DNA from: an uncultured cyanobacterium
GTDB lineage: Bacteria > Cyanobacteriota > Cyanobacteriia > PCC-9006 > JAAUQQ01
Length of the DNA stretch: 64,000 bases
Assembly: GCA_963718615.1 (NCBI GenBank)
Contig: OY970368.1
Coordinates: 6,016,001-6,080,000, forward strand
Reading direction: 5' to 3'
The notes below the pieces were generated by a model that worked only from the letters and a program-made list of their open reading frames with translations, did no database searches and was not told the DNA's origin. Made by a program: the position numbers and the translations under genes. Shown piece after piece: positions 2,614 through 24,000 of the stretch. Position 1 is the stretch's first letter, and every line of letters starts with the position of its first letter.

Positions 2614-2620
2614 CAACGAC

Positions 2621-4061: not shown

Positions 4062-5051
4062 ATGAGCCAAGCCTCGAAGGACAGTAAAGCCAGGATTATG
4101 CAGGCATTTGGGCAAATCCTGGCGGAGCGTCAACCGCTGGATGCCAAAATTGCGACCAAGGAAGAAGAGGCTGAACAGGCCCAAAATACCGAAATCCTTG
4201 CCCGTGCCTTGCAATACACCGCCGACAACATCGTCCGAGGACTCGCGGACTTACAGCTTGAGTTTGGCGAGACGGTTGGGGGAATGGTGACTTGTCTAGA
4301 GGGCGAAACCGAGAAGCTGGATGAGTTGCAGCGGGCGATCGCCACAGAAACGGATCGCCTCGACACCCTACGTAAAGTTCGCACCGTTGCTGATGCACTC
4401 CATTTGCTGACTCAGGAGCACCAGGAACATCTACGACAACTGGAGTCTGCTTTTTCGCAGGATGGCCAAGCCCTCGAAAAAGCCCGAGCAGAGGTCCATC
4501 AGCAGTGGGAGCGGGAGCAGGTAGAGCACAGGGTTCAACAGGAAGAACGTCAATCCTTGCAACAACAACTCCGAGCCACCCAGGAGGCGGACTATGGGTA
4601 TGAAACGGCGCGATCGCGTCAGATTGCCCTCGACAACTACGAAACCATGCAGCGGCAGCGATTGCGGCAGCTAGAAGAGCACCGCCAATCCCTAGAGCGC
4701 GACTGGACGGAACGAGAACAGGAATGGACTCGTCAGGAGGCGCTGAGGTTGGATTATCAACAACGGGCAGAGGCCTTTCCTGAGGAACTCGAAGCCGCGA
4801 TTCGGGAAGCGCGGGAAGAGGCAATTCGCGAGGTCTCTCAAGAGGCTCGGATCAAGGTGGAACTGGCGACCAAAGACTACGAATCGGCCCAACAACGCCA
4901 CGGATTCCAGATCGAATCCCTGGAGGCCAAAATTGCTCAGCAGTCTGCTCAGATTGAGGATTTATCCCAGCAGTTGCAACAGGCCATGCAGCAGTCCCAA
5001 GCCTTGGCTTTGCGGGCTTTTGAATCCTCCGCTGAACGGCTCAATCGTTAA
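4062..5051 (+). CDS. Coiled-coil-rich protein (first of a tandem pair, putative filament-forming)
   Basis: ATG at 4062 preferred over TTG 4041; Glu/Gln/Arg-rich heptads throughout; C-terminus similar to downstream partner (QSQALALRAFE vs QVQDLAVKAID). Confidence 0.8.
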   Translation: MSQASKDSKARIMQAFGQILAERQPLDAKIATKEEEAEQAQNTEILARALQYTADNIVRGLADLQLEFGETVGGMVTCLEGETEKLDELQRAIATETDRLDTLRKVRTVADALHLLTQEHQEHLRQLESAFSQDGQALEKARAEVHQQWEREQVEHRVQQEERQSLQQQLRATQEADYGYETARSRQIALDNYETMQRQRLRQLEEHRQSLERDWTEREQEWTRQEALRLDYQQRAEAFPEELEAAIREAREEAIREVSQEARIKVELATKDYESAQQRHGFQIESLEAKIAQQSAQIEDLSQQLQQAMQQSQALALRAFESSAERLNR

Positions 5052-10000: not shown

Positions 10001-10284
10001 AACTTTGTGGGGCAAATTTGAGCTTGGCGGATCTGAGCCAAGCCAACTTGAGCTTGGCGGATCTGAGCCAAGCCAACTTGAGCTTGGCGGATCTGAGTCA
10101 AGCCAACCTTACGAGTGCAGTTGTGCGAGGAACTGATTTAAGCGGGGCGGACTTAACGCGGGCGCAATTGCAATCAATTGTCTCCGATGAACATACCCAG
10201 TGGGAAGGGGTGCGGGGGGTGGAGCGATCGCTCCTGATCGCCGACGATTGGTTAGCGGATTCCAATCTTCCCCTGCTGAGCTAG
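7075..10284 (+). CDS. NACHT/STAND NTPase with C-terminal pentapeptide repeats
   Basis: Walker A GEAGRGKTTF, Walker B LFIIDGVD, LLTGR sensor motif, then ~40 A(D/N)LxX pentapeptides. Confidence 0.88.
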   Translation: MPTRIWKFLTTDIKGLVAGETGSVGLEAANGVLRLAAKLQSEGPQSQELGPMVGQITSLLDIFNLPLGKFISVHLPYEAIAGDLLQFYRDKTQKEPSLGHCVCLISQAAYLESITTLLGSPKLRPWIQQVGQEPVSPRVAEGLHQLGKLILSEEDVRIAIIDFGNCRLARAFTQLFLTRLTQLGLKADSARAIAQRATQLTEQRMRAPLKNSGERVQRLIEWYRIGGRAALRTYLSIDAYLHEMIRPMGDENPESFSIQELYVPPQAQLLARDGKPRSEQMTLSLQQWVQDWLDNPRRLEQVLFIEGEAGRGKTTFCQMFADWARIHLHPNWTPILVQVRDVPPPGKPLESWRFDDWLSQAIGRDFTQDDPNWLAAANVRFLFIIDGVDTLGLSQQPGATLEQFLEQVGQFQKNCASYLEREHRVLLTGRSLSLLDRQLSVPDNIERLEILPMDDALQRGWLQQLAKRAGFRPEQLKEFLTDPLLPQSIRDLSQEPLFLGFLAAMFYGGVLDASSFEAVSEAGAKVKFFTQLMDWVIAQSEISPLGLTPEQLRLMLREAGLCSVQLGTETVPLRVIEKRLAGGDDGAMPEISTLETEPEELSAPLPGTLVIRPAMMPLPIATIQADLKTQHVAALTLSHRSFSQFLFAEQLCIGLEQWSRLRNPGTETADVDWEIYDLLGYGGLTQEIVQGLLVLLDRSPTFEPEALFHRLQDFYLRWANGSIIDEHPPTLPQRKMQQLRRQQQYREQPLGQRQVDAYTGFNVMVLLLELNRYGRVRDELKQKIIFYPTGRATKAPERLLNIIQYGQCVGPQSFGRIVGPFLSGVHLSGANLSGTDLRGVNLSGADLSGTNLSGTDLRQADLRGADLSGANLSGANLDGANLRRVSLSRAMLAGATLIRALLSNADMIGALFHGADLSGADLSLADLSLADLRGAVLNQADLSLADLRSASLNCASLQKALLNRASFNSADLRCAELCGANLSLADLSQANLSLADLSQANLSLADLSQANLTSAVVRGTDLSGADLTRAQLQSIVSDEHTQWEGVRGVERSLLIADDWLADSNLPLLS
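10021..10109 (+). repeat. 30-bp in-frame tandem triplication in pentapeptide region
   Basis: AGCTTGGCGGATCTGAG(C/T)CAAGCCAAC(T/C)T x3 (SLADLSQANL). Confidence 0.85.
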
Positions 10285-11448: not shown

Positions 11449-12153
11449 TCACTCGTAAATTGCCAATACTGTGGCGATCGCTTCCTGTCGTCGTTTCTGG
11501 TCGGCCCAAATCAGCTCCTCCCGATTACCCAACCCCGGAGCATCCCAGCGATTCAGATCTGGATCCCAATAAGCCCAGGTGCGAGCCCAGATAATGGCTT
11601 CCTGCTGATCCATAAAACGAGTACGTGTTTCTGATAACCGGTCCAAATAGCCTCCCGGTAAGAGGGCTGCGCCTGGAGATTGATTGGCTAGGTCCAAAGC
11701 ATTTAGCCATTCTTCTTTGGAGAGGATTAAGCCCCGCTGCTTGGCTTGCTCCTGCAACTGTTCTTGCTGCTGTCGTAGGCGGGCAAGCTGTTTGTTATCG
11801 GCATCTTCTGGAGAAGCAGCAGGATGTTGATACGAGAAAAGGCCTATATTCCAGCGCTTATTGCCGGGATCCAAATGACGTTTATAGGCCCAGGTCGGTT
11901 GCCCGTTGCGATCTAAGGTTCCTTCTGCATAGCCAATGGTTCGTTTGATCAAATCATCAGACAAAATATCGCTATTGCGGTTGCTTGTGCTACAGGAATT
12001 CTGGCATAGAGGGTAACCTGTGGGCAGGATGAAAGGGGGGTCTGGTTGCTGGGCAGGCGGATAGGCTATAAGAGAGGTGCTGACCAATAGCCCCAAAGTA
12101 ACCGGAGCGAAGAGGCGCTGAAGGGGGCGGCGATTCTGCTGGTTCTTTTTCAT
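11449..12153 (-). CDS. Secreted protein, possible lysozyme-like peptidoglycan hydrolase
   Basis: Signal-peptide-like N-terminus, Pro linker, IGYAEGT (candidate catalytic Glu) and DPGNxxWNIGLFSYQ; fold is inferred. Confidence 0.55.
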   Translation of the reverse strand: MKKNQQNRRPLQRLFAPVTLGLLVSTSLIAYPPAQQPDPPFILPTGYPLCQNSCSTSNRNSDILSDDLIKRTIGYAEGTLDRNGQPTWAYKRHLDPGNKRWNIGLFSYQHPAASPEDADNKQLARLRQQQEQLQEQAKQRGLILSKEEWLNALDLANQSPGAALLPGGYLDRLSETRTRFMDQQEAIIWARTWAYWDPDLNRWDAPGLGNREELIWADQKRRQEAIATVLAIYE

Positions 12154-12305
12154 GGCTGATACAACTAAATGGAAGATTGTGGTGCAGATTTACGTTTTTT
12201 TGCCAAGGGAAAGCTGAGCCTCTGGCTGTAACCAAGGCGGAAGGGGGAGAGGAGGGCTGGTGCTAGCTGCCCTCGCTCAAGGACTGCAATGGGGAAAAGT
12301 GGGTC

Positions 12306-13049
12306 TTAGGGGTGCAGTTGCTGTTCGACCACGTTGGGGCTAACGCCGATGATTTGACCGTCTACGACGATCCACGTGAAGAAATCGACGTGTTCTCCAT
12401 AGTCGCCACCTGTCTTGCCCATGATGCCGATGGGCTCACCTTGGGCAATGTGCTGACCGGGTTCGACGGAGAAGCTTTCGGCATGGGCATAGGCTCCGTA
12501 GAGGGGATAGTCCTGGCCTTGAAATCGAACAGTGATGTCGAAGTCGATATGGCAGCGGTTGCCGTAGCCTGGTTCCTGCTGAACTGCATAGACTGTTCCA
12601 GGCCAGGAGGTGCGGATAGCCTTGGGATGGGCGAATGGATCGCCGTTTTGAGCATTTTTGACCACATAATCAATGCCCTTGTTGTAATGCCCTGCATGCA
12701 AGACCTTGGGCTGGTCTGAATCGGCTAGCAGTGCGAGAGTTTTGTGGTTTTTCCAGCCATGGCCTTCTGGCTCAAACGCGCCTCCGGTTTGGATGATTTC
12801 ACCCAAGATTTTAGACTTGAAGGTCGGATAACCTTTATATCGCCAGAGCTGTTCTTCGGAGAACTTTTCTCCTTTGGGGAGAATGGGCTGCAGTTTGGAT
12901 TCGGCGGGTGGGGTGGGAGGCACCTGGATGGTGGATGGGGGTGGAGGGTCGTTGGGCTTGAGGAGCAATGCGCCGCAGAGGAGGGGAGAGACCAAAAGCA
13001 GAAGGACTTTGACCCAGCGTTGAGAATTTTTGGTGATTTGTTTGTTCAC
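12306..13049 (-). CDS. Secreted M23-family (LytM-like) peptidase domain protein, degenerate metal ligands
   Basis: N-terminal TM, GID motif, GYGN, YAH, V.PGQ.I.QGEPIGIMGKTG, HVDF. Confidence 0.75.
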   Translation of the reverse strand: MNKQITKNSQRWVKVLLLLVSPLLCGALLLKPNDPPPPSTIQVPPTPPAESKLQPILPKGEKFSEEQLWRYKGYPTFKSKILGEIIQTGGAFEPEGHGWKNHKTLALLADSDQPKVLHAGHYNKGIDYVVKNAQNGDPFAHPKAIRTSWPGTVYAVQQEPGYGNRCHIDFDITVRFQGQDYPLYGAYAHAESFSVEPGQHIAQGEPIGIMGKTGGDYGEHVDFFTWIVVDGQIIGVSPNVVEQQLHP

Positions 13050-13195
13050 GGGGGAACTCTCCAGACAGATATTTCTAACTGTTTTATTTCCTGGAGCCGA
13101 AAGTCTGTGTGAATCATTGGCATTGGCAGCAAAAGTTTTTTCTTCAGTGCCGGAAAGCCAGTCCTAGAGACAATTGAGAGCGAAGAAACTAAAAT

Positions 13196-13243
13196 GGGCC
13201 GGGTCTGTCAATAATTTGCAGGGCCGACTGTCAATAATTGACA
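13196..13243. promoter_or_regulatory. Candidate operator between divergent genes
   Basis: Direct repeat GGGCCG-N1-3-CTGTCAATAATT x2; second copy extends into palindrome TGTCAAT-A-ATTGACA (13229-13243). Confidence 0.45.
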
Positions 13244-14383
13244 AAATTTGCGGAGCAGTGGGAACGGGTGAACGAAAAGCAATGCCGACTAACGTCGAGG
13301 GGGATGCAGGATCTTAAATCGCTGATCTCAGGTGTTTTTCTCAAAAAGCCCACGCACATAGAGATGGGAGTTTTGTGTGGTGTGAATCGAAACACTATAA
13401 GTCTGATTCGGCGGGAATGCCCTCAGGCTCACCATGCTCAGATTTTTGAGAGGATTTTTAACGCACTCAACGCGAACCTTAGAGAGGATTATTCGGGCAA
13501 GCCTTGTCCCTTTGATATTGAAAAGCACTGTGAGGAATTCCAGGATGTTTCAGGGCGATCGCCCCAAACCCCCCCTGCAAGCACTTCTGTAACCCTGAAT
13601 CCAGAGCAGCAAATTGCGGATCTGTTGTGGGAGTTGGATTGTGTTGCCCAAAAGGCTTGTTTTGACGAACGTTGGGTGGGGTGCGATCGCGCCGCCATCA
13701 TCTCCATCCGCGCCAAGGGCATCGATACCCAAAAATGGCTGGTAAAACGCTTTGCCAGAAAGGTCCCTAGGTTTTCAACAGCACGACCCTTCCCTATCGA
13801 AGTGCGTTCCCATGATATGCGGTGGAATTTTGAGGCATTCTGGGAGGAACTGGCGAGACCGCTGGAAATCGCAGCGGAGCCGGAGGATGTTATCCAAAGG
13901 CTCTGTGATTGTTACCAAACCCAGTCAGTGGTGATTGCGCTGTATGGCTTGGACGGTGGGAAACGTTTTGCCAAGGAGCGACAGCAGGTGATGGAGGAGT
14001 TTTGGCAGCCGCTTTATGAAAAAGTTTGTGCATTGCCGCGATCGCCCAGCTCCCGCCTCGTCCTCTTTTTAACAGGAGAGGTAGCCCAATCTGACGATGT
14101 AGCGGAGAATTTGACTGATGAGCCCCTGAGTTCGGTATACTCCCTACGCCTGCCAGATTTGGCAACTATCAGCCAGCGGGACGTTGAGCTGTGGTTAACC
14201 CAAGATGATGTTTACAACGCGCTTTGTGGCCTTCGCCAAAACTTGGATTTTGATACCCTTCTCAGGGATGATCTACCCAACTGGACAGATTACCCTGGGG
14301 AGGTTTTTCAAGAGATTCGATCGCTGTTTGACAATTTGGATTTCAATTTGGATTTACGGAGTCACTGGGAGCTAGCCGGGTAA
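13238..14383 (+). CDS. N-terminal HTH-like + inactive-STAND (iSTAND)-like protein of a MoxR-vWA system (start may be GTG 13268 or ATG 13304)
   Basis: THIEMGVLCGVNRNTISLIRR resembles an Xre HTH; C-terminal LLWELDC..Q, QKWLVKR, FWQPLY, RLVLFL pattern without a Walker A; stop abuts the MoxR ATG. Confidence 0.65.
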   Translation: MTKFAEQWERVNEKQCRLTSRGMQDLKSLISGVFLKKPTHIEMGVLCGVNRNTISLIRRECPQAHHAQIFERIFNALNANLREDYSGKPCPFDIEKHCEEFQDVSGRSPQTPPASTSVTLNPEQQIADLLWELDCVAQKACFDERWVGCDRAAIISIRAKGIDTQKWLVKRFARKVPRFSTARPFPIEVRSHDMRWNFEAFWEELARPLEIAAEPEDVIQRLCDCYQTQSVVIALYGLDGGKRFAKERQQVMEEFWQPLYEKVCALPRSPSSRLVLFLTGEVAQSDDVAENLTDEPLSSVYSLRLPDLATISQRDVELWLTQDDVYNALCGLRQNLDFDTLLRDDLPNWTDYPGEVFQEIRSLFDNLDFNLDLRSHWELAG

Positions 14384-15436
14384 ATGAGTACAGAATCTGA
14401 GCGTACAAAATTTGACTACAGCTACAGCGGCACAATCCAGCCTCCCCAGAACGGTACGAAAGACTCGGTAGGCCGGACTTACCATCCCTACATCCCCAGC
14501 GATGACCTGCGGGAGGTGGTGAACCTGGCGCTCAAGCTTCAGCGTCCGCTGTTGCTGGAGGGGGATCCGGGGTGTGGGAAGACGAAATTGGCGGGGGCGA
14601 TCGCCTACGAACTCACCCAAAGATACCTCGCTGGCAAAACAGACAAAGACAGCAACCCCCTCTGGTGGCCCTACTACATCTGGAACGTCAAATCCGTTAG
14701 CCAAGCCCAAGACGGTCTGTATCGCTATGATGCGGTGGCTCGGTTGCGGGATGCTCAGCTCGTGGGTTCCGATCCGCAGCGGTTGGCGGGGTATTTGGGG
14801 GAAGAGGAAAGCAAAAAGCTGATCGATCGCCTCAAGGACCGCAGGCGCTACCGAGAGTTTGGCCCCCTGGGCAAAGCCCTACGGCATCGGGATCAGCGAC
14901 CAATTTTGCTGATCGACGAAATCGACAAAGCCGACAGCGACTTTCCCAACGATCTCTTGCTGGAACTGGACGAACTGCGGTTTGAGATTCCCCAAACGGG
15001 CGAGGAAATCCCCACGCCGGATCAGAAGCCGATTATTTTAATTACCAGCAACCGCGAGAAACCGCTGCCGGAGCCGTTTTTGCGGCGATGCCTCTATTTT
15101 TATGTGGATTTCCCCGACGAGGAGCGACTGCTCACCATCATTCAGCAGCGGTTTGGTGCGCCCAAGCGGGGACAGACGGCGGTAATCAAAGCAGCAGTGA
15201 AGCGGTTTTACGAGATTCGGGAGCTGCTGGCCGATGAGCCAGGAAGCCGGGAGCCGGGGACGAGTGAGTTTTTGGAGTTTTTGTCGGTGTTGTTGCAGAA
15301 GTCGAGCAAAGAGGCCCAGGAAGATCTAGAAAACCTAGCGGAGCGGTTGCCGTTGTTGGGGACGTTGCTCAAGAATCGGGCCGATCAACAAAGGTTCCAA
15401 GCGAGTGAGGGAAGGAAAAATAAGGAACAAAAATGA
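14384..15436 (+). CDS. MoxR-family AAA+ ATPase
   Basis: RPLLLEGDPGCGKT, YDAVARLRDAQL, LLIDEIDKADSDFPNDLL, ITSNREKPLPEPFLRRC. Confidence 0.93.
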   Translation: MSTESERTKFDYSYSGTIQPPQNGTKDSVGRTYHPYIPSDDLREVVNLALKLQRPLLLEGDPGCGKTKLAGAIAYELTQRYLAGKTDKDSNPLWWPYYIWNVKSVSQAQDGLYRYDAVARLRDAQLVGSDPQRLAGYLGEEESKKLIDRLKDRRRYREFGPLGKALRHRDQRPILLIDEIDKADSDFPNDLLLELDELRFEIPQTGEEIPTPDQKPIILITSNREKPLPEPFLRRCLYFYVDFPDEERLLTIIQQRFGAPKRGQTAVIKAAVKRFYEIRELLADEPGSREPGTSEFLEFLSVLLQKSSKEAQEDLENLAERLPLLGTLLKNRADQQRFQASEGRKNKEQK

Positions 15437-15469
15437 TGATTAATCTCCGGCAAAACCACAGGTTGATAC

Positions 15470-15643
15470 GTAGGTTGGCGTTGAGCGAAGCGAAACCCAA
15501 CAGCCATAGCCAAGATTGGGCTGGGGTTTCGGCTGGGGTTTCGACTGGGGTTTCGGCTGGGGTTTCGGCTGGGGTTTCGGCTGGGGTTTCGGCTGGGGTT
15601 TCGGCTGGGGTGATGTTGGGTTTCGTGCCTCAACCCAACCTAC
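15470..15643. mobile_element. REP doublet (REPIN-like) 1 containing a 12-bp tandem array
   Basis: Left REP GTAG-GTTGGCGTT...AACCCAAC 15470-15501; inverted right REP GTTGGGTTTCGTGCCTCAACCCAACCTAC 15615-15643. Confidence 0.85.
15519..15611 (+). repeat. Tandem repeat (GGCTGGGGTTTC) x7 plus partial
   Basis: Read directly; third unit is GACTGGGGTTTC. Confidence 0.95.
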
Positions 15644-15656
15644 GGTTGCATGACTT

Positions 15657-16736
15657 ATGGCAATAGACTCCGCCCCCTTTCTGGATTTGTTTTTGCGGCT
15701 GCGGGCTGCGGGGATGCCGCTGTCGCCGGAGCAGTATGACCTGTTGCGGCAGTCCTTGGACCAGGGCATTGGCCTCGGGGGCTGGGACGATTTGCAGCGA
15801 ATCTGCCGCTGCCTGTGGCTAAAGCAGCCGCCCCACAGCCCAGAAGCCAAAACCTTTGATCGGGTTTTCAACGAATACCGCCAACAATCCCTCCCAACCC
15901 CATCCCGTAGGGACGAACAGCCGTTCGTCCCACCCCCGCCACAGCCACAGCCTCCACCAATCCCACAGCCCACCCCCTGGCCACCCCCCATCCCCCCGCG
16001 CAAAAAAACGCCGGATTCCCAAGCCCAGCCAGACCCAAAAGCCCATGAAAAAGCTCCGGTCGCGGTACGGGCCGAGGCAAAACCTGAGGCAATGTCCAAT
16101 CTGCATCCATTTCGGCTGGAGCCAAGGGATCTACCCGTTTCCCTGGAGCAGGTGCAAATGAGCTGGCGCATGTTGCGGCGTCCGGTGGCGGAGGGGCCAG
16201 CGCGGGAGTTGGATTTGGAGGCGACCCTTCGACGAATTGGCAGCGAGGGCCTGTTTGGCGATGTGGTCTTGCGTCCGGTGCGGCGACGGCGGGCGGAGCT
16301 GTTGCTGCTGGTGGATGAGGCCGGGGCGATGGTGCCATTTCGGCCTGCCTTGGGGCCGCTGCGGCGGGCCATGCAGGAAAGGCGGGTTTCCCCTGGGGTG
16401 GAATATCGCTTTACGGCCTATCCCGAGGAGTATGTTTATGACCCGCAAAACCGAGGACAGGCGCTGCCGCTGCGGCAGGTGGTGTCTCGGTTGCACGAAA
16501 AGCGGACAGTGGTGATGATCTGGAGTGATGGGGGCGCGGCGACAAGGCGCTATAGCGAGGAACGGGTGCGGCAAACCATCGCGTTTTTGGGTCGGCTGTT
16601 GCCCTGTGTGCGCCAGGTGATTTGGCTGAATCCGTTGCCGAGGGAGCGCTGGGCAGAAAGTTCTGCCGCTGCCATTGACCAATATTTAGCCGCCACCCCA
16701 ACCGGCCAAATGATTCCGTTTTCCGAGTTCAAATGA
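15657..16736 (+). CDS. vWA (CoxE-like) domain protein of the MoxR system
   Basis: LFLRLRAAGMPL N-terminus, Pro-rich linker, ELDLEATL, LLLVDEAGAMVPF (degenerate MIDAS), IWSDGGAA, WLNPLPRERW. Confidence 0.85.
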   Translation: MAIDSAPFLDLFLRLRAAGMPLSPEQYDLLRQSLDQGIGLGGWDDLQRICRCLWLKQPPHSPEAKTFDRVFNEYRQQSLPTPSRRDEQPFVPPPPQPQPPPIPQPTPWPPPIPPRKKTPDSQAQPDPKAHEKAPVAVRAEAKPEAMSNLHPFRLEPRDLPVSLEQVQMSWRMLRRPVAEGPARELDLEATLRRIGSEGLFGDVVLRPVRRRRAELLLLVDEAGAMVPFRPALGPLRRAMQERRVSPGVEYRFTAYPEEYVYDPQNRGQALPLRQVVSRLHEKRTVVMIWSDGGAATRRYSEERVRQTIAFLGRLLPCVRQVIWLNPLPRERWAESSAAAIDQYLAATPTGQMIPFSEFK

Positions 16737-16760
16737 CCCATCGAACATAACCCGCCAAAT

Positions 16761-18341
16761 ATGACCAGCCGGACCAGCCAACAAATCCAAGCCTTTGAAC
16801 GGCGCTATGGGACAGCGACGCTGGATTTGGCCTGCCATGGAGCGTTTCCGCTGACGCTGACGACGGAGTTGCTCTATTGTTTGCGGGAGCAGTTTAATTT
16901 GGATTGCGACTGGTATGGGGCGGCGGATGTGTTGCTGTCGGGGTTGTGTCGGTCGGTGGGGCACGACCTGTATGAGATGGATGGCCCTTTGCGCAATGCG
17001 CTGTTGTGGCGGCTGGCGCAGCGGCTGGAGCAGCGGTTTCCGGAGCGTTTGGAAGAGTTAGAAGCATTCATGGTGGCCTATATTCGCCATCGTTTGCAGG
17101 TGGAGGAAAATCGGCGGGCGCTGGTGCTGGGGGATCCGGAGCGGATGCACTGGACGGCGTTGGCCTGTTTGCGGTCTGAGGAAGCGATCGAAGCGATTCG
17201 TCAGGATTTGCAGCGGCTGACGGCGGCGGATGTGAACCCGGAGGAGCGGTTTCGGTTGGCGGCGTTGGTGGAGAGTTATGGGGATTTTTTGGCGGAGCAG
17301 GATTATCGACCTGTGCTGCTGGACTGGGCAGAGAAGCTGGCGGAGGGGGAGCCGATTGATGGGCGGGCGGCGGCAGTAGCGACGGCGGCAGCAGCGGCAG
17401 CGCGGGCGGGGTTTCCGGCGTTGAAGACGTTGGAGTTTGAGCTGGCGGAGATGGTGTTGGGCGAGGATGGGCCGGATTTGCCGATTGAGCAGTTGGGAAA
17501 ATTTCGGTTTGAGACAGTGACAGTGGATCGGCGGGGACGGATCAAGAAGCGGGAGGAGAAGGAGGCGTTTTATTTTGTGGAGCCTTTGGGGGAGGCGGGG
17601 CCGTTTTTGGAGATGGTGGCGGTGCAGGGCGGCAGGTTCATGATGGGATCGCCAAAAGATGAGCCGGGACGGTGGGATTCTGAGGGGCCGCAGCATGAGG
17701 TGGTGGTACCGAGTTTTTTTATGGGGCGGTATCCGGTGACCCAGGCACAGTGGCAGGCGATTGCCCAAACCTCGAAGGTGAAGCACGATCTGGAACTAAA
17801 CCCATCTCACTTCAAAGGGAAAGACCGTCCCGTGGAGCGGGCGTATTGGCAGGATGCGGTGGAATTTTGTGCGCGGCTGAGCCGGGAAACGGGGCGGGAA
17901 TATCGCTTGCCGAGCGAGGCGGAGTGGGAATATGCCTGCCGAGCGGGGACGACGACGCCGTTTCATTTTGGGGAGATGATTACCCCTGGGCTGGCGAACT
18001 ACAACGTTAGCTCTGCCTATAACAAGGGGCCAAAGGGTCAATATCGAAAAGAAACGACCCCGGTGGGAAGTTTTCCGGCCAATGGGTTTGGGCTCTGTGA
18101 CATGCATGGGAATGTCTGGGAATGGTGTGCAGATCACTGGCATGAGAACTATGAGGGAGCACCGACAGATGGAAGTGCTTGGCTAGAAAAAGACTCTAAG
18201 TTGCATGTACAACGCGGCGGCTTCTGGAAACGTCGTCCCAAGAGTTGCCGCTCCGCGTCCCGCTACTTCAGCCACTTTCTCGCGCCCCGCCACTTCAGTT
18301 TCGGTTTTCGAGTGATGTGTGTTTTGCCGAGGACTCCCTAG
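16761..18341 (+). CDS. Helical N-terminal domain + FGE-sulfatase (SUMF1/CLec-fold) protein; putative DGR target
   Basis: FERRYG..LACHGAFPLTLT N-terminus; [51 protein letters not shown]. Confidence 0.9.
   Translation: MTSRTSQQIQAFERRYGTATLDLACHGAFPLTLTTELLYCLREQFNLDCDWYGAADVLLSGLCRSVGHDLYEMDGPLRNALLWRLAQRLEQRFPERLEELEAFMVAYIRHRLQVEENRRALVLGDPERMHWTALACLRSEEAIEAIRQDLQRLTAADVNPEERFRLAALVESYGDFLAEQDYRPVLLDWAEKLAEGEPIDGRAAAVATAAAAAARAGFPALKTLEFELAEMVLGEDGPDLPIEQLGKFRFETVTVDRRGRIKKREEKEAFYFVEPLGEAGPFLEMVAVQGGRFMMGSPKDEPGRWDSEGPQHEVVVPSFFMGRYPVTQAQWQAIAQTSKVKHDLELNPSHFKGKDRPVERAYWQDAVEFCARLSRETGREYRLPSEAEWEYACRAGTTTPFHFGEMITPGLANYNVSSAYNKGPKGQYRKETTPVGSFPANGFGLCDMHGNVWEWCADHWHENYEGAPTDGSAWLEKDSKLHVQRGGFWKRRPKSCRSASRYFSHFLAPRHFSFGFRVMCVLPRTP
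18207..18341 (+). other. DGR-like variable region VR1 with invariant 3' (IMH-like) end
   Basis: Pairs with 20808-20939; differences cluster at codon positions 1-2 of NNC/NNT codons; the terminal TCGGTTTTCGAGTG...ACTCCCTAG stretch is identical. Confidence 0.8.
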
Positions 18342-18386
18342 CCCTCTGCTCTTTTGCCCTCTTGCCCTTTGGGCTGTTGGGTTGCT

Positions 18387-18401
18387 TCGCGCGGAGCGCG
18401 A
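18387..18401 (+). other. GC hairpin downstream of VR1
   Basis: TCGCGC-GGA-GCGCGA; same stem at 20984-20998 with loop GCA. Confidence 0.65.
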
Positions 18402-18488
18402 TCAAAATTTTTGGGGGTTTGGGGTGTTCGGTGGGGGTGATTCCTCTCGGTGGAACGGCAGGTGATCGAAAATGTCGCGGCGGAGACG

Positions 18489-19067
18489 GTAGGTTGGCGT
18501 TGAACGAACGTGAAACCCAACATGCTCCAACCATGGCTTTGCCCGTTATCCACCAACCATGGCTTTGCCCGTTATCCACCAACCATGGCTTTGCCCGTTA
18601 TCCACCAACCATGGCTTTGCCCGTTATCCACCAACCATGGCTTTGCCCGTTATCCACCAACCATGGCTTTGCCCGTTATCCACCAACCATGGCTTTGCCC
18701 GTTATCCACCAACCATGGCTTTGCCCGTTATCCACCAACCATGGCTTTGCCCGTTATCCACCAACCATAGCTTTGCCCGTTATCCACCAACCATGGCTTT
18801 GCCCGTTATCCACCAACCATGGCTTTGCCCGTTATCCACCAACCATGGCTTTGCCCGTTATCCACCAACCATGGCTTTGCCCGTTATCCACCAACCATGG
18901 CTTTGCCCGTTATCCACCAACCACGGCTTTGCCCGTTATCCACCAACCATGGCTTTGCCCGTTATCCACCAACCATGGCTTTGCCCGTTATCCACCAACC
19001 ACGGCTTTGCCCGTTATCCACCAACCATGGCTTTGCCCGTTGGGTTTCGTGCCTCAACCCAACCTAC
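18489..19067. mobile_element. REP doublet 2 containing a 26-bp tandem array
   Basis: Left REP 18489-18521 (GTAGGTTGGCGTTGAACGAACGTGAAACCCAAC), inverted right REP 19039-19067. Confidence 0.85.
18527..19041 (+). repeat. Tandem repeat (CCATGGCTTTGCCCGTTATCCACCAA) ~19.8 copies
   Basis: Unit starts every 26 bp from 18531 to 19025; three single-base variants; no spacers. Confidence 0.95.
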
Positions 19068-19089
19068 GGGTAATTGTTTTGGCCCAATT

Positions 19090-19234
19090 GTAGGTTGGTG
19101 TTGGACGAACGTGAAACCCAACAGCCTGAGGGAGGGCGATCGCAAAGGATCATGGATGACTCAATCATGATTTTCGTACGGGCGATTTCCCCCTTGCTTA
19201 AGCTTGTTGGGTTTCGTGCCTCAACCCAACCTAC
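19090..19234. mobile_element. REP doublet 3 (no internal array)
   Basis: Left REP 19090-19122, inverted right REP 19206-19234. Confidence 0.8.
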
Positions 19235-19270
19235 GAGGGTTGATGTGTGGGTTAATTCATTATGATTTTC

Positions 19271-19813
19271 CTAGGGACGATCGCCTATGGGTGGCTCGAA
19301 ATGATGCGCAGGGGCAGCCCAACTGTGAGGATAATACCCTTGGTTGACATAGCGATGAAAACTAGAATAAGGCCAATCTTTAGGAGCCTTGACCCATCCA
19401 TGTTTGACCGGATTGTAATGAATGTAGTCTAGGTGATTTGCCAGATCCAATTCATCGCGAATACAATGCTCCCAAAAGCGCCGTTGCCATACATTTCGTT
19501 CTTGTTTACTCTGCCGAGACAGGGAAATCACTTCTGTAGACTCACGGGGATAATGGCGGCTGAAATGGCCTTTAATTAATCTCCAGCGAGTTGAAAAATT
19601 AGCATCACCCTCCGGTAACGTCCAAATGCAATGAAGATGATCAGGCAAAATGACAGCCGCATCAATGATGAAGGGATGCTTGGTGCGCACAGACCTAAAG
19701 GACTGACGGAGAATAGCAATATGCTCTGGATCTTGGAAAAGGGGGCGGCGATCGCTCGTTACCACCGTAAAAAAATAGGTTCCTCCAGAGACTTTGGCGC
19801 GACGGTATTGCAT
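19271..19813 (-). CDS. rayT: REP-associated tyrosine transposase (RAYT / TnpA-REP, HUH Y1 family)
   Basis: YRR...GGTYFFTVVT, VILPDHLHCIW (HUH), WQRRFWEHCIRD, DYIHYNPVKHG (catalytic Tyr), DWPYSSF; GTAG REP doublets on both sides. Confidence 0.93.
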   Translation of the reverse strand: MQYRRAKVSGGTYFFTVVTSDRRPLFQDPEHIAILRQSFRSVRTKHPFIIDAAVILPDHLHCIWTLPEGDANFSTRWRLIKGHFSRHYPRESTEVISLSRQSKQERNVWQRRFWEHCIRDELDLANHLDYIHYNPVKHGWVKAPKDWPYSSFHRYVNQGYYPHSWAAPAHHFEPPIGDRP

Positions 19814-19867
19814 AAAGGCGATCGCAAAGGACTGCTCCTAAAATTCCCATTCAAAACCCCATAACCC

Positions 19868-20097
19868 GTAGGTTGGCGTTGAGCGTAGCGAAACCCAACG
19901 GTTTTGGGGGCGATCGCCGGGGTTGTTGGGTTTCATTATGGGGGTTTTTGGGGAGGGGCGATCGCAAGGGCTGTTGGGTTTCATTATGGGGGTTTTTGGG
20001 GAGGGGCGATCGCAAGGGCTGTTGGGTTTCATTATGGGGGTTTTTGGGGAGGGGCGATCGCAAGGGCTGTTGGGTTTCATTCTTCAACCCAACCTAC
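19868..20097. mobile_element. REP doublet 4 containing a 48-bp tandem array
   Basis: Left REP 19868-19899; right REP 20069-20097. Confidence 0.85.
19924..20081 (+). repeat. 48-bp tandem repeat x3 plus partial, each unit with a HIP1 site and a REP half-site
   Basis: GTTGGGTTTCATTATGGGGGTTTTTGGGGAGGGGCGATCGCAAGGGCT starting at 19925, 19973, 20021; fourth start 20069 runs into the right REP. Confidence 0.95.
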
Positions 20098-20135
20098 AAT
20101 TGAGCTGTTGGTTTTTGTTTTTGGGGATCATCATC

Positions 20136-20939
20136 ATGGCGGAACTGACGATCAAACGCAGCATCAGAACGGCCCAATATTTCACCGAAGACTTAGGAAA
20201 CGGGGTTGGACTGGATATGGTGCTAATTCCCGGTGGAACCTTCCTGATGGGCTCCCCAGAAGACGAGCCAGAACGGTGGGACGATGAAGGTCCGCAGCAT
20301 GAGGTGACGGTGCCGAGCTTTTTCATGGGACGCTACCCGGTGACCCAAGCCCAATGGACAGCAATTGCCCAGAAGCGGAAGAGCAACCGCAAACTGGAAC
20401 TGGATCCATCAGGTTTCAAAGGGGCAGATCGCCCGGTCGAAAACATTGAGTGGGACGACGCCATGGAGTTTTGCGCTCGATTAAGCCGAGAGACGGGACG
20501 GGAATATCGTTTGCCGAGCGAAGCGGAATGGGAGTACGCCTGCCGAGCGGGGACGACAACACCGTTTCATTTTGGCGAAATGATCACGACCGAGCTAGCT
20601 AATTACAACGGTAGTGGCTACAACGGTGGCCCCGAAGGAGAATCTCGACAGGAGACAACCCCAGTGGGTAGCTTCCCAGCCAATGGATTTGGGCTCTGTG
20701 ACATGCATGGGAATGTCTGGGAATGGTGTGCAGATAACTGGCATAAAAACTATGAGAGAGCACCGGCGGATGGAAATGCTTGGTTAGACAAAGACTCTGG
20801 AATGTATGTACAACGCGGCGGCTCTTGGTTCTTCGCTCCCAGGATTTGCCGCTCCGCGTCCCGCGACGACTTCAGTCTCGCGCTCCGCAACAACGGTCTC
20901 GGTTTTCGAGTGATGTGTGTTTTGCCGAGGACTCCCTAG
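20136..20939 (+). CDS. Stand-alone FGE-sulfatase (SUMF1/CLec-fold) protein; putative DGR target
   Basis: ATG 20136 (upstream ORF extension is repeat-derived); [16 protein letters not shown]...[16 protein letters not shown]...RGGSW...CRSASR...GFRV. Confidence 0.9.
20808..20939 (+). other. DGR-like variable region VR2 with invariant 3' end
   Basis: Retains AAC AAC codons where VR1 has CAC TTC; shared 3' end and ~65-bp downstream segment with hairpin 20984-20998. Confidence 0.8.
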
Positions 20940-20998
20940 CCCTCTGCTCTTTTGCCCTCTTGCCCTTTTGGCTGCTGGCTGTTTCGCGCGCAGCGCGA

Positions 20999-21850
20999 TC
21001 AAATTTTCTGCCCCCCCAACACCCCATACACAATCGTCTTTTCCCGAAACCCCTGCTGCATCAACCGCACCGCAAACGCCCCCCGAACCGTCATCCAACC
21101 ACTCGTCAACACCCCCAAAATCGCCTGGGGACTCAGCGCCGACTCCAACACCACATCCCAAAACGGGGCCACCGCCTCCGACCAATCCGCCGTTTGCAAA
21201 TTTTCCAGGGGTAAGGTCTTGGCCATACTGGCATAATCCCCCAAGGAAACCACAAAAGGCAGATGATACAACTCATAGATTTCCTGCAACAGCCTCGTCT
21301 CCGCCGTTGTCAGCGCCGGTGGGAGCTCCCGATGACACCAGGTCGCCACGATCAGTTTCCCCCCCGGCCTCAGCACCCGACAACATTCCGCCAAAAACTG
21401 CTGCTTATCCGGCATGTGCTCCCCACTTTCCAGCGACCACACCAGATCAAAACTGGCATCGGCAAACGGCATTTCCAAGGCATTCTCCACCTGAAAATTG
21501 ACCCGGTGGGCAATCCCCGCCTCCGCCGCCCTGGCGCGCGCCCGCTGAGCTTGGGTCGGGCTCAGCGTAATGCCTGTGCCATCGGCCCCAAAGCGGCGAG
21601 CCAAATAGAGCGTGCTGCCCCCAATGCCACAGCCCACATCCAAAATCTCTTGCGCCTCCGTCACCCCCGCCCAACGGAGCAACGCTTCAATTAGGTCAAT
21701 TTGGGCCTGCCGCCGCTCCTTCGGCTCCTGGCCATCCGGGCCATAGTAGCCATGGTGCATGTGCTCACCCCAAACCTGCTCCCAGAGCCCCGAAGAGGCA
21801 TCATAAAACGCTTGGATGCGGCGGTAGAGTGCAGTCGTCGTTGCGGTCAT
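20999..21850 (-). CDS. vte4: Gamma-tocopherol methyltransferase-like SAM methyltransferase
   Basis: IQAFYDASSGLWEQVWGEHMHHGYY, ILDVGCGIGGS, FDLVWSLESGEHMPDK, ATWCHR. Confidence 0.85.
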   Translation of the reverse strand: MTATTTALYRRIQAFYDASSGLWEQVWGEHMHHGYYGPDGQEPKERRQAQIDLIEALLRWAGVTEAQEILDVGCGIGGSTLYLARRFGADGTGITLSPTQAQRARARAAEAGIAHRVNFQVENALEMPFADASFDLVWSLESGEHMPDKQQFLAECCRVLRPGGKLIVATWCHRELPPALTTAETRLLQEIYELYHLPFVVSLGDYASMAKTLPLENLQTADWSEAVAPFWDVVLESALSPQAILGVLTSGWMTVRGAFAVRLMQQGFREKTIVYGVLGGQKI

Positions 21851-21947
21851 TGAGAGCCCCTTTAGATTGCCATGTTGTCCAGTATGCGCTACATCTCATC
21901 ATGGAAGATCTATCCGATGACGCTTGAAAGCGGGAATTGTGAGCGTT

Positions 21948-22433
21948 ATGGAGTTTCATGGCAAAGTGATTTTGGGGATTGATCCGGCGATCGCCTCCAT
22001 CGGTTACGCCGCCATTTGCGATGCCACCGTGATCGACTACGGCGTGATCAAAACCCCCGCCTCAGCCAATCTGTACGATCGCCTCAAACAAATTCATCTG
22101 GATATCTGCGAACTCTGTACGATCGTCAAACCCGAAATCGTCGCCCTAGAAATGCCCTTCTTTAGCCGCGAAAACACCAACGCCAACAAGGTTTTGCGAG
22201 CGCTAGGGGTGATTCAAATGGCCCTAGGGGATTCTGGATTGCCGGATCCGATTTTTCTGCACCAATCCCAGGTGAAATCCGCCGTGGCTCAGTATGGAGC
22301 CGATAAGGGGGAAATTCAACTGGCGGTGGCATTTTTGTTTAATTTGTCGTCTCCGCCCAGACCGGACGATGCGGCGGATGCTTTGGCGATCGCCTACGCC
22401 GCCCAGATCGGAATGCGGGCGAATGTGCGATAG
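21948..22433 (+). CDS. ruvC: Crossover junction endodeoxyribonuclease RuvC
   Basis: ILGIDP, VALEMPFF, QVKSAV...ADK, PDDAADALAIA. Confidence 0.85.
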   Translation: MEFHGKVILGIDPAIASIGYAAICDATVIDYGVIKTPASANLYDRLKQIHLDICELCTIVKPEIVALEMPFFSRENTNANKVLRALGVIQMALGDSGLPDPIFLHQSQVKSAVAQYGADKGEIQLAVAFLFNLSSPPRPDDAADALAIAYAAQIGMRANVR

Positions 22434-22464
22434 GGAAATCCGGTCATGGGACCCGAGGAGAAGC

Positions 22465-23391
22465 ATGAATCAAGGCTGGACCTACGAAGAACGCATTGAC
22501 CGAACCGCAGCAGGGCAAACGGTGCTGGCCTACTATGTTCAGCGCTATCGACATTCTGGGGAGGGGGAATGGCGATCGCGCATCGAGTCCCAGCAGGTTT
22601 TTCTAGACGGATTGCCCACGACCCCAGACCACCCCCTCCAGCGGGGTCAGGTGTTGACCTATCATCGTCCCCCCTGGCAAGAACCCGAGGTGCCGCTGGA
22701 CTTTGATCAGGTCTATGCAGATGAGGACCTATGGGTGATCAACAAACCCTCTGGACTTCCCGTTATGCCGGGAGGCGGGTTCTTGGAGAATACCTTGCTA
22801 GGACAACTGCAACGACAGTATCCCACGGATACACCCGTGCCGATTCATCGCTTGGGTCGAGGGACCTCGGGGTTGGTGTTGTTGGGGCGATCGCCCTTGG
22901 CAAAATCTGAATTGACGCGGCAAATGCGCGATCGCCAAATCCGCAAATTTTATCGAGCCCTCATACCAAGCTACAACGCAGCGGGTGAATTGTTTCCTCC
23001 ACAGCTGACGATTCAAACTCCCATCGGTAAAGTGCCCCATCCGACCTTAGGCGAGATCTTTGCCGCCACCCCAGCGGGTCGCTTTGCCCAGAGCGATTGC
23101 CAGGTGCTTCGGCAAGATGCGCAAACAACTCTGCTTGAAGTTGAAATTTTCACAGGACGCCCCCACCAAATTCGGATTCATCTCGCTGCTGTGGGCTATC
23201 CTCTCCTCGGGGATCCGCTCTACCAACCGGGCGGACAACCTCGACTCGTGGCGAATGCTCAAGGAAAACTCCCGACACCGGGTGATTGTGGCTATAAACT
23301 CCATGCCTTCCGACTCGTATTTCGCCATCCGCGCTCCCAACAGCCCTTGACCCTCGAATGCTTACCCCCCAGCTTGGAGTTGTTGTCGTAG
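22465..23391 (+). CDS. RluA-family RNA pseudouridine synthase
   Basis: INKPSGLPV, IHRLGRGTSGLVL, TGRPHQIRIHLA..GYPLLGDPLY; ATG 22465 after GAGGAG. The usual HRLD Asp reads G here. Confidence 0.85.
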   Translation: MNQGWTYEERIDRTAAGQTVLAYYVQRYRHSGEGEWRSRIESQQVFLDGLPTTPDHPLQRGQVLTYHRPPWQEPEVPLDFDQVYADEDLWVINKPSGLPVMPGGGFLENTLLGQLQRQYPTDTPVPIHRLGRGTSGLVLLGRSPLAKSELTRQMRDRQIRKFYRALIPSYNAAGELFPPQLTIQTPIGKVPHPTLGEIFAATPAGRFAQSDCQVLRQDAQTTLLEVEIFTGRPHQIRIHLAAVGYPLLGDPLYQPGGQPRLVANAQGKLPTPGDCGYKLHAFRLVFRHPRSQQPLTLECLPPSLELLS

Positions 23392-24000
23392 GGCTCGCAG
23401 GGCACTGCTGGTATTTTGTTCACTGGCCCGTTGCATGGTTTCATGGATTAGAGTTTCTAGGAGAATTCCTGGGAAAAAACGACTATATTCCACGACCTGA
23501 TAGCCATCATTTTGAAATTGATAAATCTTAAGCTGTTTCCGTTCATAAAGCCAAACCTCAGGCACACCGTAGGGCACATAATCTTCGATGTCGGTGTAGC
23601 TAGTAACATCAATTTCAATGACTAAGTCTGGTGGTGGTTCAGTCTCCCAATCAATGCGTTCTTTCCCCGCAACCGCAACCCAATGGTCAATATAAAAACA
23701 ATAGTCCGGTTCCACACCTCGCACTTCCGGCAAATCCATCGTGATGGGCGTAAAAGCTTCGTAGTCTTGACCTTGGTTGTCTAGCAGGGCGATCGCAACC
23801 ATCGCAATTACATGAGCATCCCGGCCATGAACGGGTAACGGCGACATAAACAGAATTTCTCCGGGACGATATTTGATGCGGGGAAGTTGGCGATCGCCTA
23901 ACCGGTGAACCAGCTCCTGATAGTCCTGCCAAGTTCCAGGGGTACGCAGGACCGTGCCTGGGGGTAAGTGAATCTGCTCGGGTGTGACAACTGCATACAT
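23362..24000 (-). CDS. Uma2 (DUF820) family endonuclease-like protein
   Basis: TWQDY, MSPLPVH, EPDYCFYI, PPPDLVIEIDVTS, YGVPEVWLY. Confidence 0.9.
   Translation of the reverse strand: MYAVVTPEQIHLPPGTVLRTPGTWQDYQELVHRLGDRQLPRIKYRPGEILFMSPLPVHGRDAHVIAMVAIALLDNQGQDYEAFTPITMDLPEVRGVEPDYCFYIDHWVAVAGKERIDWETEPPPDLVIEIDVTSYTDIEDYVPYGVPEVWLYERKQLKIYQFQNDGYQVVEYSRFFPGILLETLIHETMQRASEQNTSSALRALRQQLQAGG

What the first reader, a model, noticed from the sequence alone, without database searches (positions are those of the whole stretch)
18207..21010. Two DGR-type hypervariable targets with no RT or template in the window
Seen, VR1 vs VR2 codons: aag/agg, agt/att, tac/gac, ttc/gac, ccc/ctc, cac/aac, ttc/aac, agt/ggt, ttc/ctc. 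Changes fall at positions 1-2 with third-position bases fixed, while scaffold codons (CGC GGC GGC, TGC CGC TCC GCG TCC CGC) are identical. The gene ends and ~65 bp beyond the stops are near-identical and include a TCGCGC-GNA-GCGCGA hairpin. Known: DGRs mutate template adenines (AAC/AAT codons) in CLec/FGE domains and need an IMH and a downstream hairpin; remote targets occur in cyanobacteria. Inference: both sensors are diversified in trans by a distant DGR.
Basis: partly seen in the sequence, partly recalled or inferred. Interest (0 to 1): 0.8.

Follow-up and report, generated by a model that had tools for sequence, protein, structure and literature searches.

The report
Frozen DGR targets, retroelement core deleted
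Two lectin-fold sensor genes of a cyanobacterium carry hypervariable tips that were once rewritten by a reverse-transcriptase system, but that system has been cut out of this genome, so the tips are frozen relics of a known mechanism.

Summary
Genes A (16761-18341) and B (20133-20939) end in FGE-sulfatase/C-lectin domains. Their last ~120 nt differ mainly at codon positions 1-2, inside an identical scaffold and 3' flank with a G-N-A hairpin.

They are genuine DGR variable regions. Against the template repeat (TR) of the closest relative found (G003), VR2 differs at 18 of 30 TR adenines and 3 of 87 other sites. VR1 differs at 18 of 30 and 8 of 87, plus one extra codon.

The closed 6.1-Mb genome has no reverse transcriptase, no Avd and no intact TR.

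In relative G007 the same operon (iSTAND, MoxR-AAA, vWA, gene A) is followed by RT, Avd, TR and the gene B orthologue. Here that 1.8-kb slot holds a RAYT-type transposase gene and REP-bounded tandem arrays.

About 22 codons of the RT C-terminus survive next to gene A's hairpin (genome-wide E 3.7e-6). A second dead DGR locus with a truncated TR lies at 5.13 Mb.

Verdict: relic targets of a known cyanobacterial DGR type. This scan has reported similar frozen VRs on other DNA.

The parts
13238..14383 (+). iSTAND-domain protein, first gene of the conserved operon
   Evidence: Pfam PF19995 iSTAND, E 3.6e-10. The equivalent gene in relative G007 (L035:7998-9200) also hits iSTAND.
14384..15436 (+). 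MoxR-like AAA ATPase
   Evidence: Pfam AAA_5 and AAA. 67% aa identity to L035:6958-8016 of G007.
15657..16736 (+). vWA (CoxE-like) protein
   Evidence: Pfam VWA_CoxE, E 6.2e-10. 54% aa identity to L035:5876-6958.
16761..18341 (+). Gene A: 526-aa protein with an N-terminal domain of no known family and a C-terminal FGE-sulfatase/C-lectin domain
   Evidence: Pfam FGE-sulfatase, E 3.9e-56, residues 284-518. The N-terminal 280 aa have no Pfam hit. 56% full-length identity to L035:4308-5876.
18211..18331 (+). VR1, the former DGR variable region of gene A
   Evidence: Against the TR of G003: 18 of 30 adenine sites changed, 8 of 87 other sites changed, plus a 3-nt insertion. Coordinates.
18387..18401 (+). 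Hairpin 1: 6-bp GC-rich stem with a GGA loop, followed by a T-run; the conserved DGR target-recognition-type element
   Evidence: The same element with a G-N-A loop follows VRs of relatives.
18402..18494 (-). Relic of the C-terminal ~22-30 codons of the DGR reverse transcriptase gene; its stop codon abuts hairpin 1
   Evidence: A profile of 15 RT tails was searched against 222,221 six-frame pieces of the genome. The top hit is this frame, E 3.7e-6 and 30 bits; the next is E 1.1. Position and strand match the RT of G007.
18488..19068 (.). REP-like inverted elements bounding a 26-nt tandem array, which replaces the body of the RT gene
   Evidence: the repeat finder families D1, D8 and D9.
19271..19813 (-). 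RAYT-like Y1 (IS200-like) transposase gene, flanked by REP-like elements (19089-19235 and 19867-20098)
   Evidence: Pfam Y1_Tnp, E 1e-6 and 29.8 bits. Repeats.
20133..20939 (+). Gene B: 268-aa FGE-sulfatase/C-lectin protein
   Evidence: Pfam E 2e-63. 71% aa identity to L035:1458-2270. 89.5% DNA identity over 877 nt to L039:3744-4620.
20812..20929 (+). VR2, the former DGR variable region of gene B
   Evidence: Against the TR of G003: 18 of 30 adenine sites changed and 3 of 87 other sites changed, none of those 3 in the variable part.
20984..20998 (+). Hairpin 2: same stem as hairpin 1, with a GCA loop

Best explanation
Genes A and B are former targets of a cyanobacterial diversity-generating retroelement (DGR). 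Its core (reverse transcriptase, Avd, template repeat) once lay between them and has been deleted. In relatives, TR RNA is copied by the RT with Avd into cDNA with random bases opposite template adenines. That cDNA replaces the last ~120 nt of each target gene, guided by the 3' end of the VR and a downstream GC-rich G-N-A hairpin, and so rewrites the ligand-binding face of the C-lectin/FGE fold. Gene A belongs to an iSTAND / MoxR-AAA / vWA sensor operon. In this genome the RT-Avd-TR segment was replaced by a RAYT-type transposase gene with REP-bounded tandem arrays, leaving only the last ~22 codons of the RT. No RT, Avd or usable TR remains in the assembled genome, so VR1 and VR2 are frozen. 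Shown here: homology to the relatives' VRs, synteny, mapping of the differences to TR adenines, the RT relic, and the absence of RT, Avd and TR from the assembly. Inferred: that the deletion happened in situ through or alongside the RAYT/REP insertion, that no diversification occurs now, and the biochemical mechanism (from published work on BPP-1, not tested here).
For: (1) Adenine-specific pattern. Against the TR of relative G003 (L039:3433-3577), VR2 is changed at 18 of 30 A sites against 3 of 87 non-A sites (p 1.2e-10). VR1 is changed at 18 of 30 against 8 of 87 (p 7.4e-8). VR1 and VR2 differ from each other at 20 of 30 against 5 of 87. Positive controls: the VRs of G007 and G002 differ from their own TRs at 11-15 A sites and at 0 of 85 or 0 of 91 non-A sites. 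(2) Synteny. G007 has iSTAND, AAA (67%), vWA (54%), the gene A orthologue (56%), then RT (RVT_1, 70 bits), bAvd (71 bits), TR and the gene B orthologue (71%). (3) RT relic. It lies at 18402-18494 (-), is the only significant hit in the genome to a profile of 15 RT tails (E 3.7e-6, next E 1.1), and sits where and on the strand that synteny predicts. (4) Absence of the core. RVT_1 gave 0 candidates. Six RT queries gave a best E of 0.46. Six Avd queries gave a best E of 0.021. No cognate TR was found by blastn with the VRs or with the relative's TR. The genome is one contig with no N and is rated 100% complete. (5) Drift. VR1 has 5 non-A changes in its variable part and an extra codon, so VR1 and VR2 cannot both be fresh copies of one TR. 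(6) Loss of the core at this kind of locus recurs in other cyanobacteria. Of 16 fetched loci with AAA+vWA+gene A, 3 have an RT within the flank, 4 have only an Avd match and 9 have neither. (7) A second locus in this genome (5.13 Mb) holds three tandem VR genes and a truncated TR without an RT.
Against: Both genes are intact. The 3' cis elements (the TR-homology end, the spacer and the hairpin) are identical or nearly so between VR1 and VR2 and are conserved with relatives. That is what one would expect of targets still in use, or of a very recent loss. VR2 has no non-adenine change in its variable part relative to a relative's TR. A plasmid or phage that is not in the one-contig assembly could carry an RT-Avd-TR core, and this cannot be excluded here. 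In G003 the Avd-TR-gene B locus also lacks an adjacent RT while DGR-type RTs lie on other contigs, so trans arrangements exist in this family. No population data on VR heterogeneity could be obtained.
Confidence: 0.85

Rival explanations
1. One reading: both VRs are currently diversified in trans by a DGR located elsewhere, either in the genome or on an unassembled plasmid or phage of the strain.
For: The cis elements (VR 3' end, hairpin) are intact and identical at both targets. VR2 fits a relative's TR perfectly at non-A sites of the variable part. Remote targets are documented in cyanobacteria (PMC7517822, passages read). Relative G003 has an Avd-TR-target locus without an adjacent RT while RTs sit on other contigs.
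Against: No RT, no Avd and no cognate TR in a closed, N-free genome. The RT that once served these genes is visibly truncated in place. VR1 carries 5 non-A changes and an indel, whereas 0 of 85-91 non-A sites are changed in the four VRs of relatives with a complete DGR.
Confidence: 0.07
2. The two gene ends are ordinary paralogues whose ligand-binding codons diverged by point mutation under positive selection. The resemblance to DGR products is coincidental.
For: The variable codons sit in the binding face of a lectin fold, where positive selection is plausible. A few differences are not of the adenine type.
Against: The differences map to TR adenines of relatives with p about 1e-10. Orthologous genes in G007 flank a complete DGR. 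An RT relic lies beside gene A. The post-VR element and G-N-A hairpin are shared with VRs next to DGR cores: 20 of 60 VR-like flanks carry such a hairpin, against 0 of 12 TR flanks and 0% of shuffles.
Confidence: 0.02
3. The VRs are still exchanged or homogenised without an RT, by gene conversion among the roughly nine VR-bearing paralogues of the genome, a cassette-like variation system built on former DGR targets.
For: Identity between A and B rises towards the 3' end: 72%, 80%, 82% and 92% in successive blocks, then 100% after the VR. That pattern suits conversion tracts. The genome holds at least 8 further VR-like ends with related flanks.
Against: Conversion would homogenise the VRs themselves, yet they are the most different part. 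Flank conservation also extends to other genomes, which fits selection on a cis element or a recent loss. There is no direct evidence of mosaic VRs.
Confidence: 0.04

Closest known systems
[quoted passage not shown] 2018, PMC5758913, passages read; Vallota-Eastman et al. 2020, PMC7517822, passages read)
   Same: Same target fold and the same AAC/AAT-rich TR design in relatives. Same operon partners (MoxR-AAA, vWA, plus iSTAND). More than one target per element. The VR lies at the 3' end of the gene.
   Different: Here the RT, Avd and TR are missing from the whole assembled genome. Only about 22 codons of the RT and, at another locus, a truncated TR remain.
[quoted passage not shown] 90 (PMC7517822, passages read)
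   Same: VR-type gene ends without a nearby RT. IS200/IS605-family transposase genes are reported there as the commonest transposases near variable-protein genes.
   Different: The passage read notes only that no RT gene or pseudogene lies near all3226. Here the deletion scar can be read in place by synteny, and the whole genome is RT-free while keeping about nine VR-type ends.
Bordetella phage BPP-1 DGR target recognition (Guo et al. 2011, PMC3240598, passages read)
   Same: A GC-rich inverted repeat downstream of the VR, beyond the end of TR/VR homology. The stem sequence varies while the loop is conserved.
   Different: BPP-1-like phage elements have 7-10-bp stems and 4-nt GRNA loops, 4-34 bp from the VR. 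Here the stems are 5-6 bp with 3-nt G-N-A loops, about 55 nt from the end of TR homology, followed by a T-run.
REP-associated tyrosine transposases (RAYT) with REP/REPIN clusters (name recalled; the Pfam Y1_Tnp hit is)
   Same: A weakly scoring Y1_Tnp gene flanked by short inverted repeat elements.
   Different: The REP-like elements here bound internal tandem arrays of 12, 26 and 48 nt, and they occupy the slot of a deleted DGR core. Whether the transposase caused the deletion is unknown.

Membership tests
Active diversity-generating retroelement (complete system) | DGR-type reverse transcriptase gene in the genome | tested here: not met
   RVT_1: 0 candidates in the own genome, while the controls ring. 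tblastn with 6 RTs of relatives: best E 0.46. Only a C-terminal relic of about 22 codons remains.
Active diversity-generating retroelement (complete system) | Template repeat matching the VR at non-adenine positions | tested here: not met
   blastn of VR1, VR2 and the relative's TR against the whole genome finds only coding paralogues and one truncated TR of another VR subfamily at G000:C1:5133887-5133990.
Active diversity-generating retroelement (complete system) | Accessory protein (Avd) | tested here: not met
   tblastn with 6 bAvd sequences from relatives: best E 0.021, none near a VR gene.
DGR variable region (product of mutagenic retrohoming) | VR/TR mismatches confined to template adenines, mostly at codon positions 1-2 | tested here: met
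   Tested against the TR of relative G003. VR2: 18 of 30 A sites against 3 of 87 non-A sites. VR1: 18 of 30 against 8 of 87, plus one extra codon. Indels opposite AAC are described in PMC5758913 (figure legend read).
DGR variable region (product of mutagenic retrohoming) | VR at the 3' end of the target gene, followed by a GC-rich inverted repeat | tested here: met
   The VRs end 8 nt before the stop codons. Hairpins lie at 18387-18401 and 20984-20998. G-N-A hairpins occur in 20 of 60 VR-like flanks, 0 of 12 TR flanks and 0% of shuffled flanks.
DGR variable region (product of mutagenic retrohoming) | Target domain of the C-type lectin / FGE-sulfatase fold | tested here: met
   Pfam PF03781, E 3.9e-56 and 2e-63. 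The fold itself was not modelled.
DGR variable region (product of mutagenic retrohoming) | Ongoing variation within a population | not testable with these tools
   Only two metagenome runs with small shares were found, kept as contigs. No reads of the strain were available.
MoxR-vWA 'ternary' conflict/sensor system (Kaur et al. 2020, PMC7159879, search listing only; described in passages of 10.1101/2023.09.22.558884) | MoxR-like AAA ATPase and a vWA protein encoded together | tested here: met
   AAA_5/AAA at 14384-15436 and VWA_CoxE at 15657-16736. The iSTAND gene lies upstream.
MoxR-vWA 'ternary' conflict/sensor system (Kaur et al. 2020, PMC7159879, search listing only; described in passages of 10.1101/2023.09.22.558884) | VMAP (vWA-MoxR-associated protein) domain | tested here: inconclusive
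   The N-terminal 280 aa of gene A have no Pfam hit at E 0.01. No VMAP family appeared in any Pfam scan of the operon.

The most novel reading that the evidence does not exclude
The intact, near-identical cis elements (VR 3' end, spacer, G-N-A hairpin) at the window's two targets in an RT-free genome, with perfect G-N-A hairpins at six of its nine VR-like ends, may not be mere leftovers. They could act as standing landing pads that an incoming DGR core (phage- or plasmid-borne RT-Avd-TR of the same lineage) can re-arm. The RAYT-type Y1 transposases found beside VR genes may recognise these DNA hairpins and drive excision and reshuffling of DGR cores. That would be a switch between 'diversify' and 'freeze' states.
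Probability: 0.08. Interest if true: 0.6.

Novelty: new member of a known kind. Interest (0 to 1): 0.3.

Why it matters
This is a clean, datable example of how a DGR dies. The two targets and their recognition elements are kept, and the core is replaced by a transposase and repeat cluster. A short RT stump marks the scar, in a closed genome that has no reverse transcriptase at all yet keeps about nine VR-type sensor genes.

It cautions against counting VR-like gene ends as active hypervariable loci. It also offers a natural recipient in which the cis requirements of cyanobacterial DGR targets could be tested by supplying a core in trans. It does not reveal a new mechanism.

Tried and rejected
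1. Public reads for VR heterogeneity. Only two metagenome runs held small shares of the stretch (0.10 and 0.08 of sampled words). Laying 19150-21900 gave only short contigs. X1 has a few near-identical pieces but no cover over VR2. X2 holds more distant relatives. Nothing can be concluded about variation or habitat.

2. Rfam. There were 0 matches at gathering score in the window, the 5.13-Mb locus and three relatives' DGR loci, so no curated DGR RNA family helped.

3. TR relic upstream of gene B. blastn of G007 and G003 loci against 12000-24000 shows homology starting only at gene B's start codon, so no TR or Avd trace is left there.

4. The ORF L035:2634-3026(-) was first considered as Avd. 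It was rejected as low-complexity; the bAvd hit is on the + strand.

5. The first 8 residues of the tblastn RT-tail match are coded by a REP-like element and were discounted. The profile search aligns only the 22 residues beyond it.

6. A literature search with loose terms returned nothing relevant. One search was the useful one.

7. The group-2 VRs compared with the truncated TR gave a weaker adenine bias (9-16 of 22 A sites against 7-10 of 59 non-A sites). This was not used as evidence for the window's VRs.
Full report
**What is at the coordinates.** Two + strand genes end in FGE-sulfatase domains. Gene A (16761-18341, 526 aa) hits Pfam PF03781 at E 3.9e-56. Gene B (20133-20939, 268 aa) hits it at E 2e-63. 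Their 3' ends align. About 130 nt upstream of the variable part are roughly 93% identical. Then comes a ~120-nt stretch in which identical scaffold codons alternate with codons that differ mostly at positions 1 and 2. After that, the sequence is identical from the GGT TTT CGA codons through both stop codons into the 3' flank. The flank ends in a 6-bp GC-rich stem with a 3-nt loop, GGA at 18387-18401 and GCA at 20984-20998, followed by a T-run.

**Are these DGR variable regions?** Yes, by homology and by the adenine rule.

- A search of 30 relatives for RVT_1 led to DGR-type RTs in genomes of the same family.
- The contigs of G007 (L035) and G002 (L034) each hold an RT, a non-coding AAC/AAT-rich template repeat and two VR-bearing FGE genes. 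The post-VR spacer and hairpin of those genes align with those of the window.
- In these relatives the VRs differ from their own TR at 11-15 adenine sites and at 0 of 85 or 0 of 91 other sites. This is the positive control.
- The closest relative found, G003 (L039, a MAG titled Synechococcales cyanobacterium CRU_2_2), has a gene B orthologue 89.5% identical in DNA.
- On that TR, VR2 is changed at 18 of 30 adenines and at 3 of 87 other sites. The three are two lineage differences in the invariant tail and the TR/VR marker at the end of homology.
- VR1 is changed at 18 of 30 adenines and 8 of 87 other sites, and has one extra codon inside the AAC run.
- VR1 and VR2 differ from each other at 20 of 30 adenine columns and 5 of 87 others (p 5.6e-11).
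- Indels opposite AAC codons are a described DGR feature (PMC5758913, figure legend read).

**Is there a DGR to drive them?** No, not in the assembly.

- The window lies in a single 6,095,823-bp contig without N, rated 100% complete.
- RVT_1 gave no candidate, although the control genomes ring.
- tblastn with six DGR RTs of relatives gave nothing better than E 0.46.
- Six bAvd queries gave nothing better than E 0.021.
- blastn with VR1, VR2 and the G003 TR found only coding FGE paralogues (62-70% identity), a 5'-truncated VR fragment at 944,510-944,666, and one TR-like non-coding piece at 5,133,887-5,133,990.
- That piece carries the TR-specific upstream motif shared with the TRs of G007, G002 and G003. 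It breaks off after about 80 nt and belongs to a different VR subfamily.

**The scar.** G007's contig is colinear with the window:

- iSTAND protein;
- MoxR-like AAA (67% aa identity);
- vWA (54%);
- gene A orthologue (56% over the full length);
- RT, convergent on gene A, with its stop codon next to the hairpin;
- bAvd (PF22296, 71 bits);
- TR, in the orientation of the targets;
- gene B orthologue (71%).

In the window the 1.8 kb between genes A and B holds other things instead:

- a 26-nt tandem array bounded by REP-like inverted elements (18488-19068);
- a further REP pair (19089-19235);
- a weakly scoring Y1_Tnp (RAYT-like) gene (19271-19813, minus strand);
- a REP-bounded 48-nt array (19867-20098).

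A profile built from the C-terminal tails of 15 cyanobacterial DGR RTs was searched against all 222,221 six-frame pieces of the genome. It has one significant hit: the frame at window 18405-18545 on the minus strand, E 3.7e-6 and 30 bits, with the next hit at E 1.1. The aligned 22 residues (TYRLRRDIFDHLPFHREE...) run from 18494 to 18429. The frame's stop codon at 18402-18404 abuts hairpin 1, as in G007. The 5' break coincides with the first REP-like element. No trace of Avd or TR is left upstream of gene B.

**Wider context in this genome and in others.**

- The genome has 12 FGE-sulfatase matches.
- Besides A and B, five genes share a second VR scaffold with a conserved post-VR element. They end near 5,132,580, 5,133,520, 5,134,870, 5,504,300 and 3,707,840.
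- Another gene at 3,273,042 and the fragment at 944,5xx are also VR-like.
- The three tandem genes at 5.13 Mb surround the truncated TR, so this is a second dead DGR locus.
- Among 74 loci fetched with gene A as query, 16 have the AAA+vWA+gene A arrangement. Of these, 3 have an RT in the fetched flank, 4 have only an Avd match and 9 have neither. One of the 9 has under 0.5 kb of downstream sequence.
- Over all 74 loci, 11 have an RT match and 23 an Avd match, so 12 have Avd without RT.
- Core loss at such loci is therefore common.
- A scaffold-based survey found 60 VR-like and 12 TR-like sites. A perfect GC-rich hairpin follows 24 of the 60 VR-like sites, and 20 of those have a G-N-A triloop. 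Only 1 of the 12 TR sites has a hairpin, and it is not G-N-A. Of shuffled flanks, 1.3% have a hairpin and none has a G-N-A loop.
- The hairpin is therefore a VR-specific element, as in BPP-1, where structure and loop matter (PMC3240598, passages read). It differs in form, with a shorter stem, a 3-nt loop and a greater distance from the VR.

**Mechanism and state.** The working model for relatives is the published DGR cycle. TR RNA is reverse-transcribed, with random bases placed opposite adenines. The cDNA then replaces the VR, guided by the VR's 3' end and the hairpin. This model was not tested here. It rewrites the binding face of a lectin-fold sensor. Gene A sits in an iSTAND / MoxR / vWA operon, a kind of locus already linked to cyanobacterial DGRs (10.1101/2023.09.22.558884, passages read; PMC7517822, passages read). 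In this genome the cycle cannot run, so the VRs are frozen.

VR1 has begun to drift, with 5 non-adenine changes in the variable part. VR2 has none there, both genes are intact, and the cis elements are still identical. This points to a fairly recent loss or to continued selection on these sequences. An RT-Avd-TR core on an unassembled replicon cannot be excluded (about 7%).

**Comparison with what is known.** Remnant VRs without a nearby RT (all3226) and IS200/IS605-family transposases near variable-protein genes are already noted for cyanobacteria, with the suggestion that diversification components may be removed once a good variant is fixed (PMC7517822, passages read). I found no paper describing this particular locus. 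The searches were made, and supplements were not consulted. This scan has reported similar frozen VRs on other DNA.

**Verdict.** This is a well-resolved new example of a known kind. Interest is low to moderate.

Noticed in passing
G000:C1:5131862-5134870 (outside the window; locus L017 5829-8878), TR piece at G000:C1:5133887-5133990: A second dead DGR locus. Three tandem FGE genes have VR-like ends of a second scaffold type, and a non-coding, AAC-rich TR copy lies between them. The copy keeps the TR-specific upstream motif but breaks off after about 80 nt into a unique 14-bp inverted repeat. No RT or Avd is present.
   Followed up: partly
G000:C1 near 5504300(-), 3707840(-), 3273042(-), 944510-944666(-): Further VR-type FGE gene ends with a conserved post-VR spacer and G-N-A hairpins. 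These are a 707-aa open frame, a kinase-FGE protein, a 672-aa open frame, and a 5'-truncated VR fragment. The RT-free genome holds about nine VR-like ends in all.
   Followed up: partly
window 15469-15644, 18488-19068, 19089-19235, 19867-20098: MITE-like units. Pairs of ~31-nt REP-like inverted elements enclose tandem arrays of 12, 26 or 48 nt. Only 8-13 copies of the element core exist in the genome, and eight element copies lie in this 5-kb stretch around the RAYT-like gene.
   Followed up: partly
window 19271-19813(-); G000:C1:3277158-3277436(-); G000:C1:3706708-3707382(-): The genome's divergent (RAYT-like, 26-33 bit) Y1_Tnp genes all lie within a few kb of VR-bearing FGE genes. The seven canonical IS200-type copies (135-149 bits) do not. 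This fits the remark in PMC7517822 that IS200/IS605 transposases are the commonest near variable-protein genes.
   Followed up: partly
L035 (G007) 2448-4230 and L034 (G002) 1096-2800, compared with L048, L052, L062, L078, L082, L103, L106, L108, L111: In the two same-family relatives the avd-RT block is inverted relative to the TR and the target genes. The TR is transcribed divergently from avd-RT, and the RT converges on gene A. In nine other cyanobacterial loci the order is target, avd, RT, TR on one strand.
   Followed up: no
L039 (G003) 1952-4545: The closest relative has bAvd, TR and the gene B orthologue with a perfect VR (1 of 87 non-A changes), but a Fic-domain gene where the RT should be. 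Two DGR-type RTs lie on other contigs of that MAG. This may be a trans arrangement or an intermediate stage of decay.
   Followed up: partly
window 7075-10284 (+): A 1069-aa protein with NNH3, NACHT and pentapeptide repeats lies 3 kb upstream of the iSTAND-MoxR-vWA operon. It is another STAND-type sensor in the neighbourhood.
   Followed up: no
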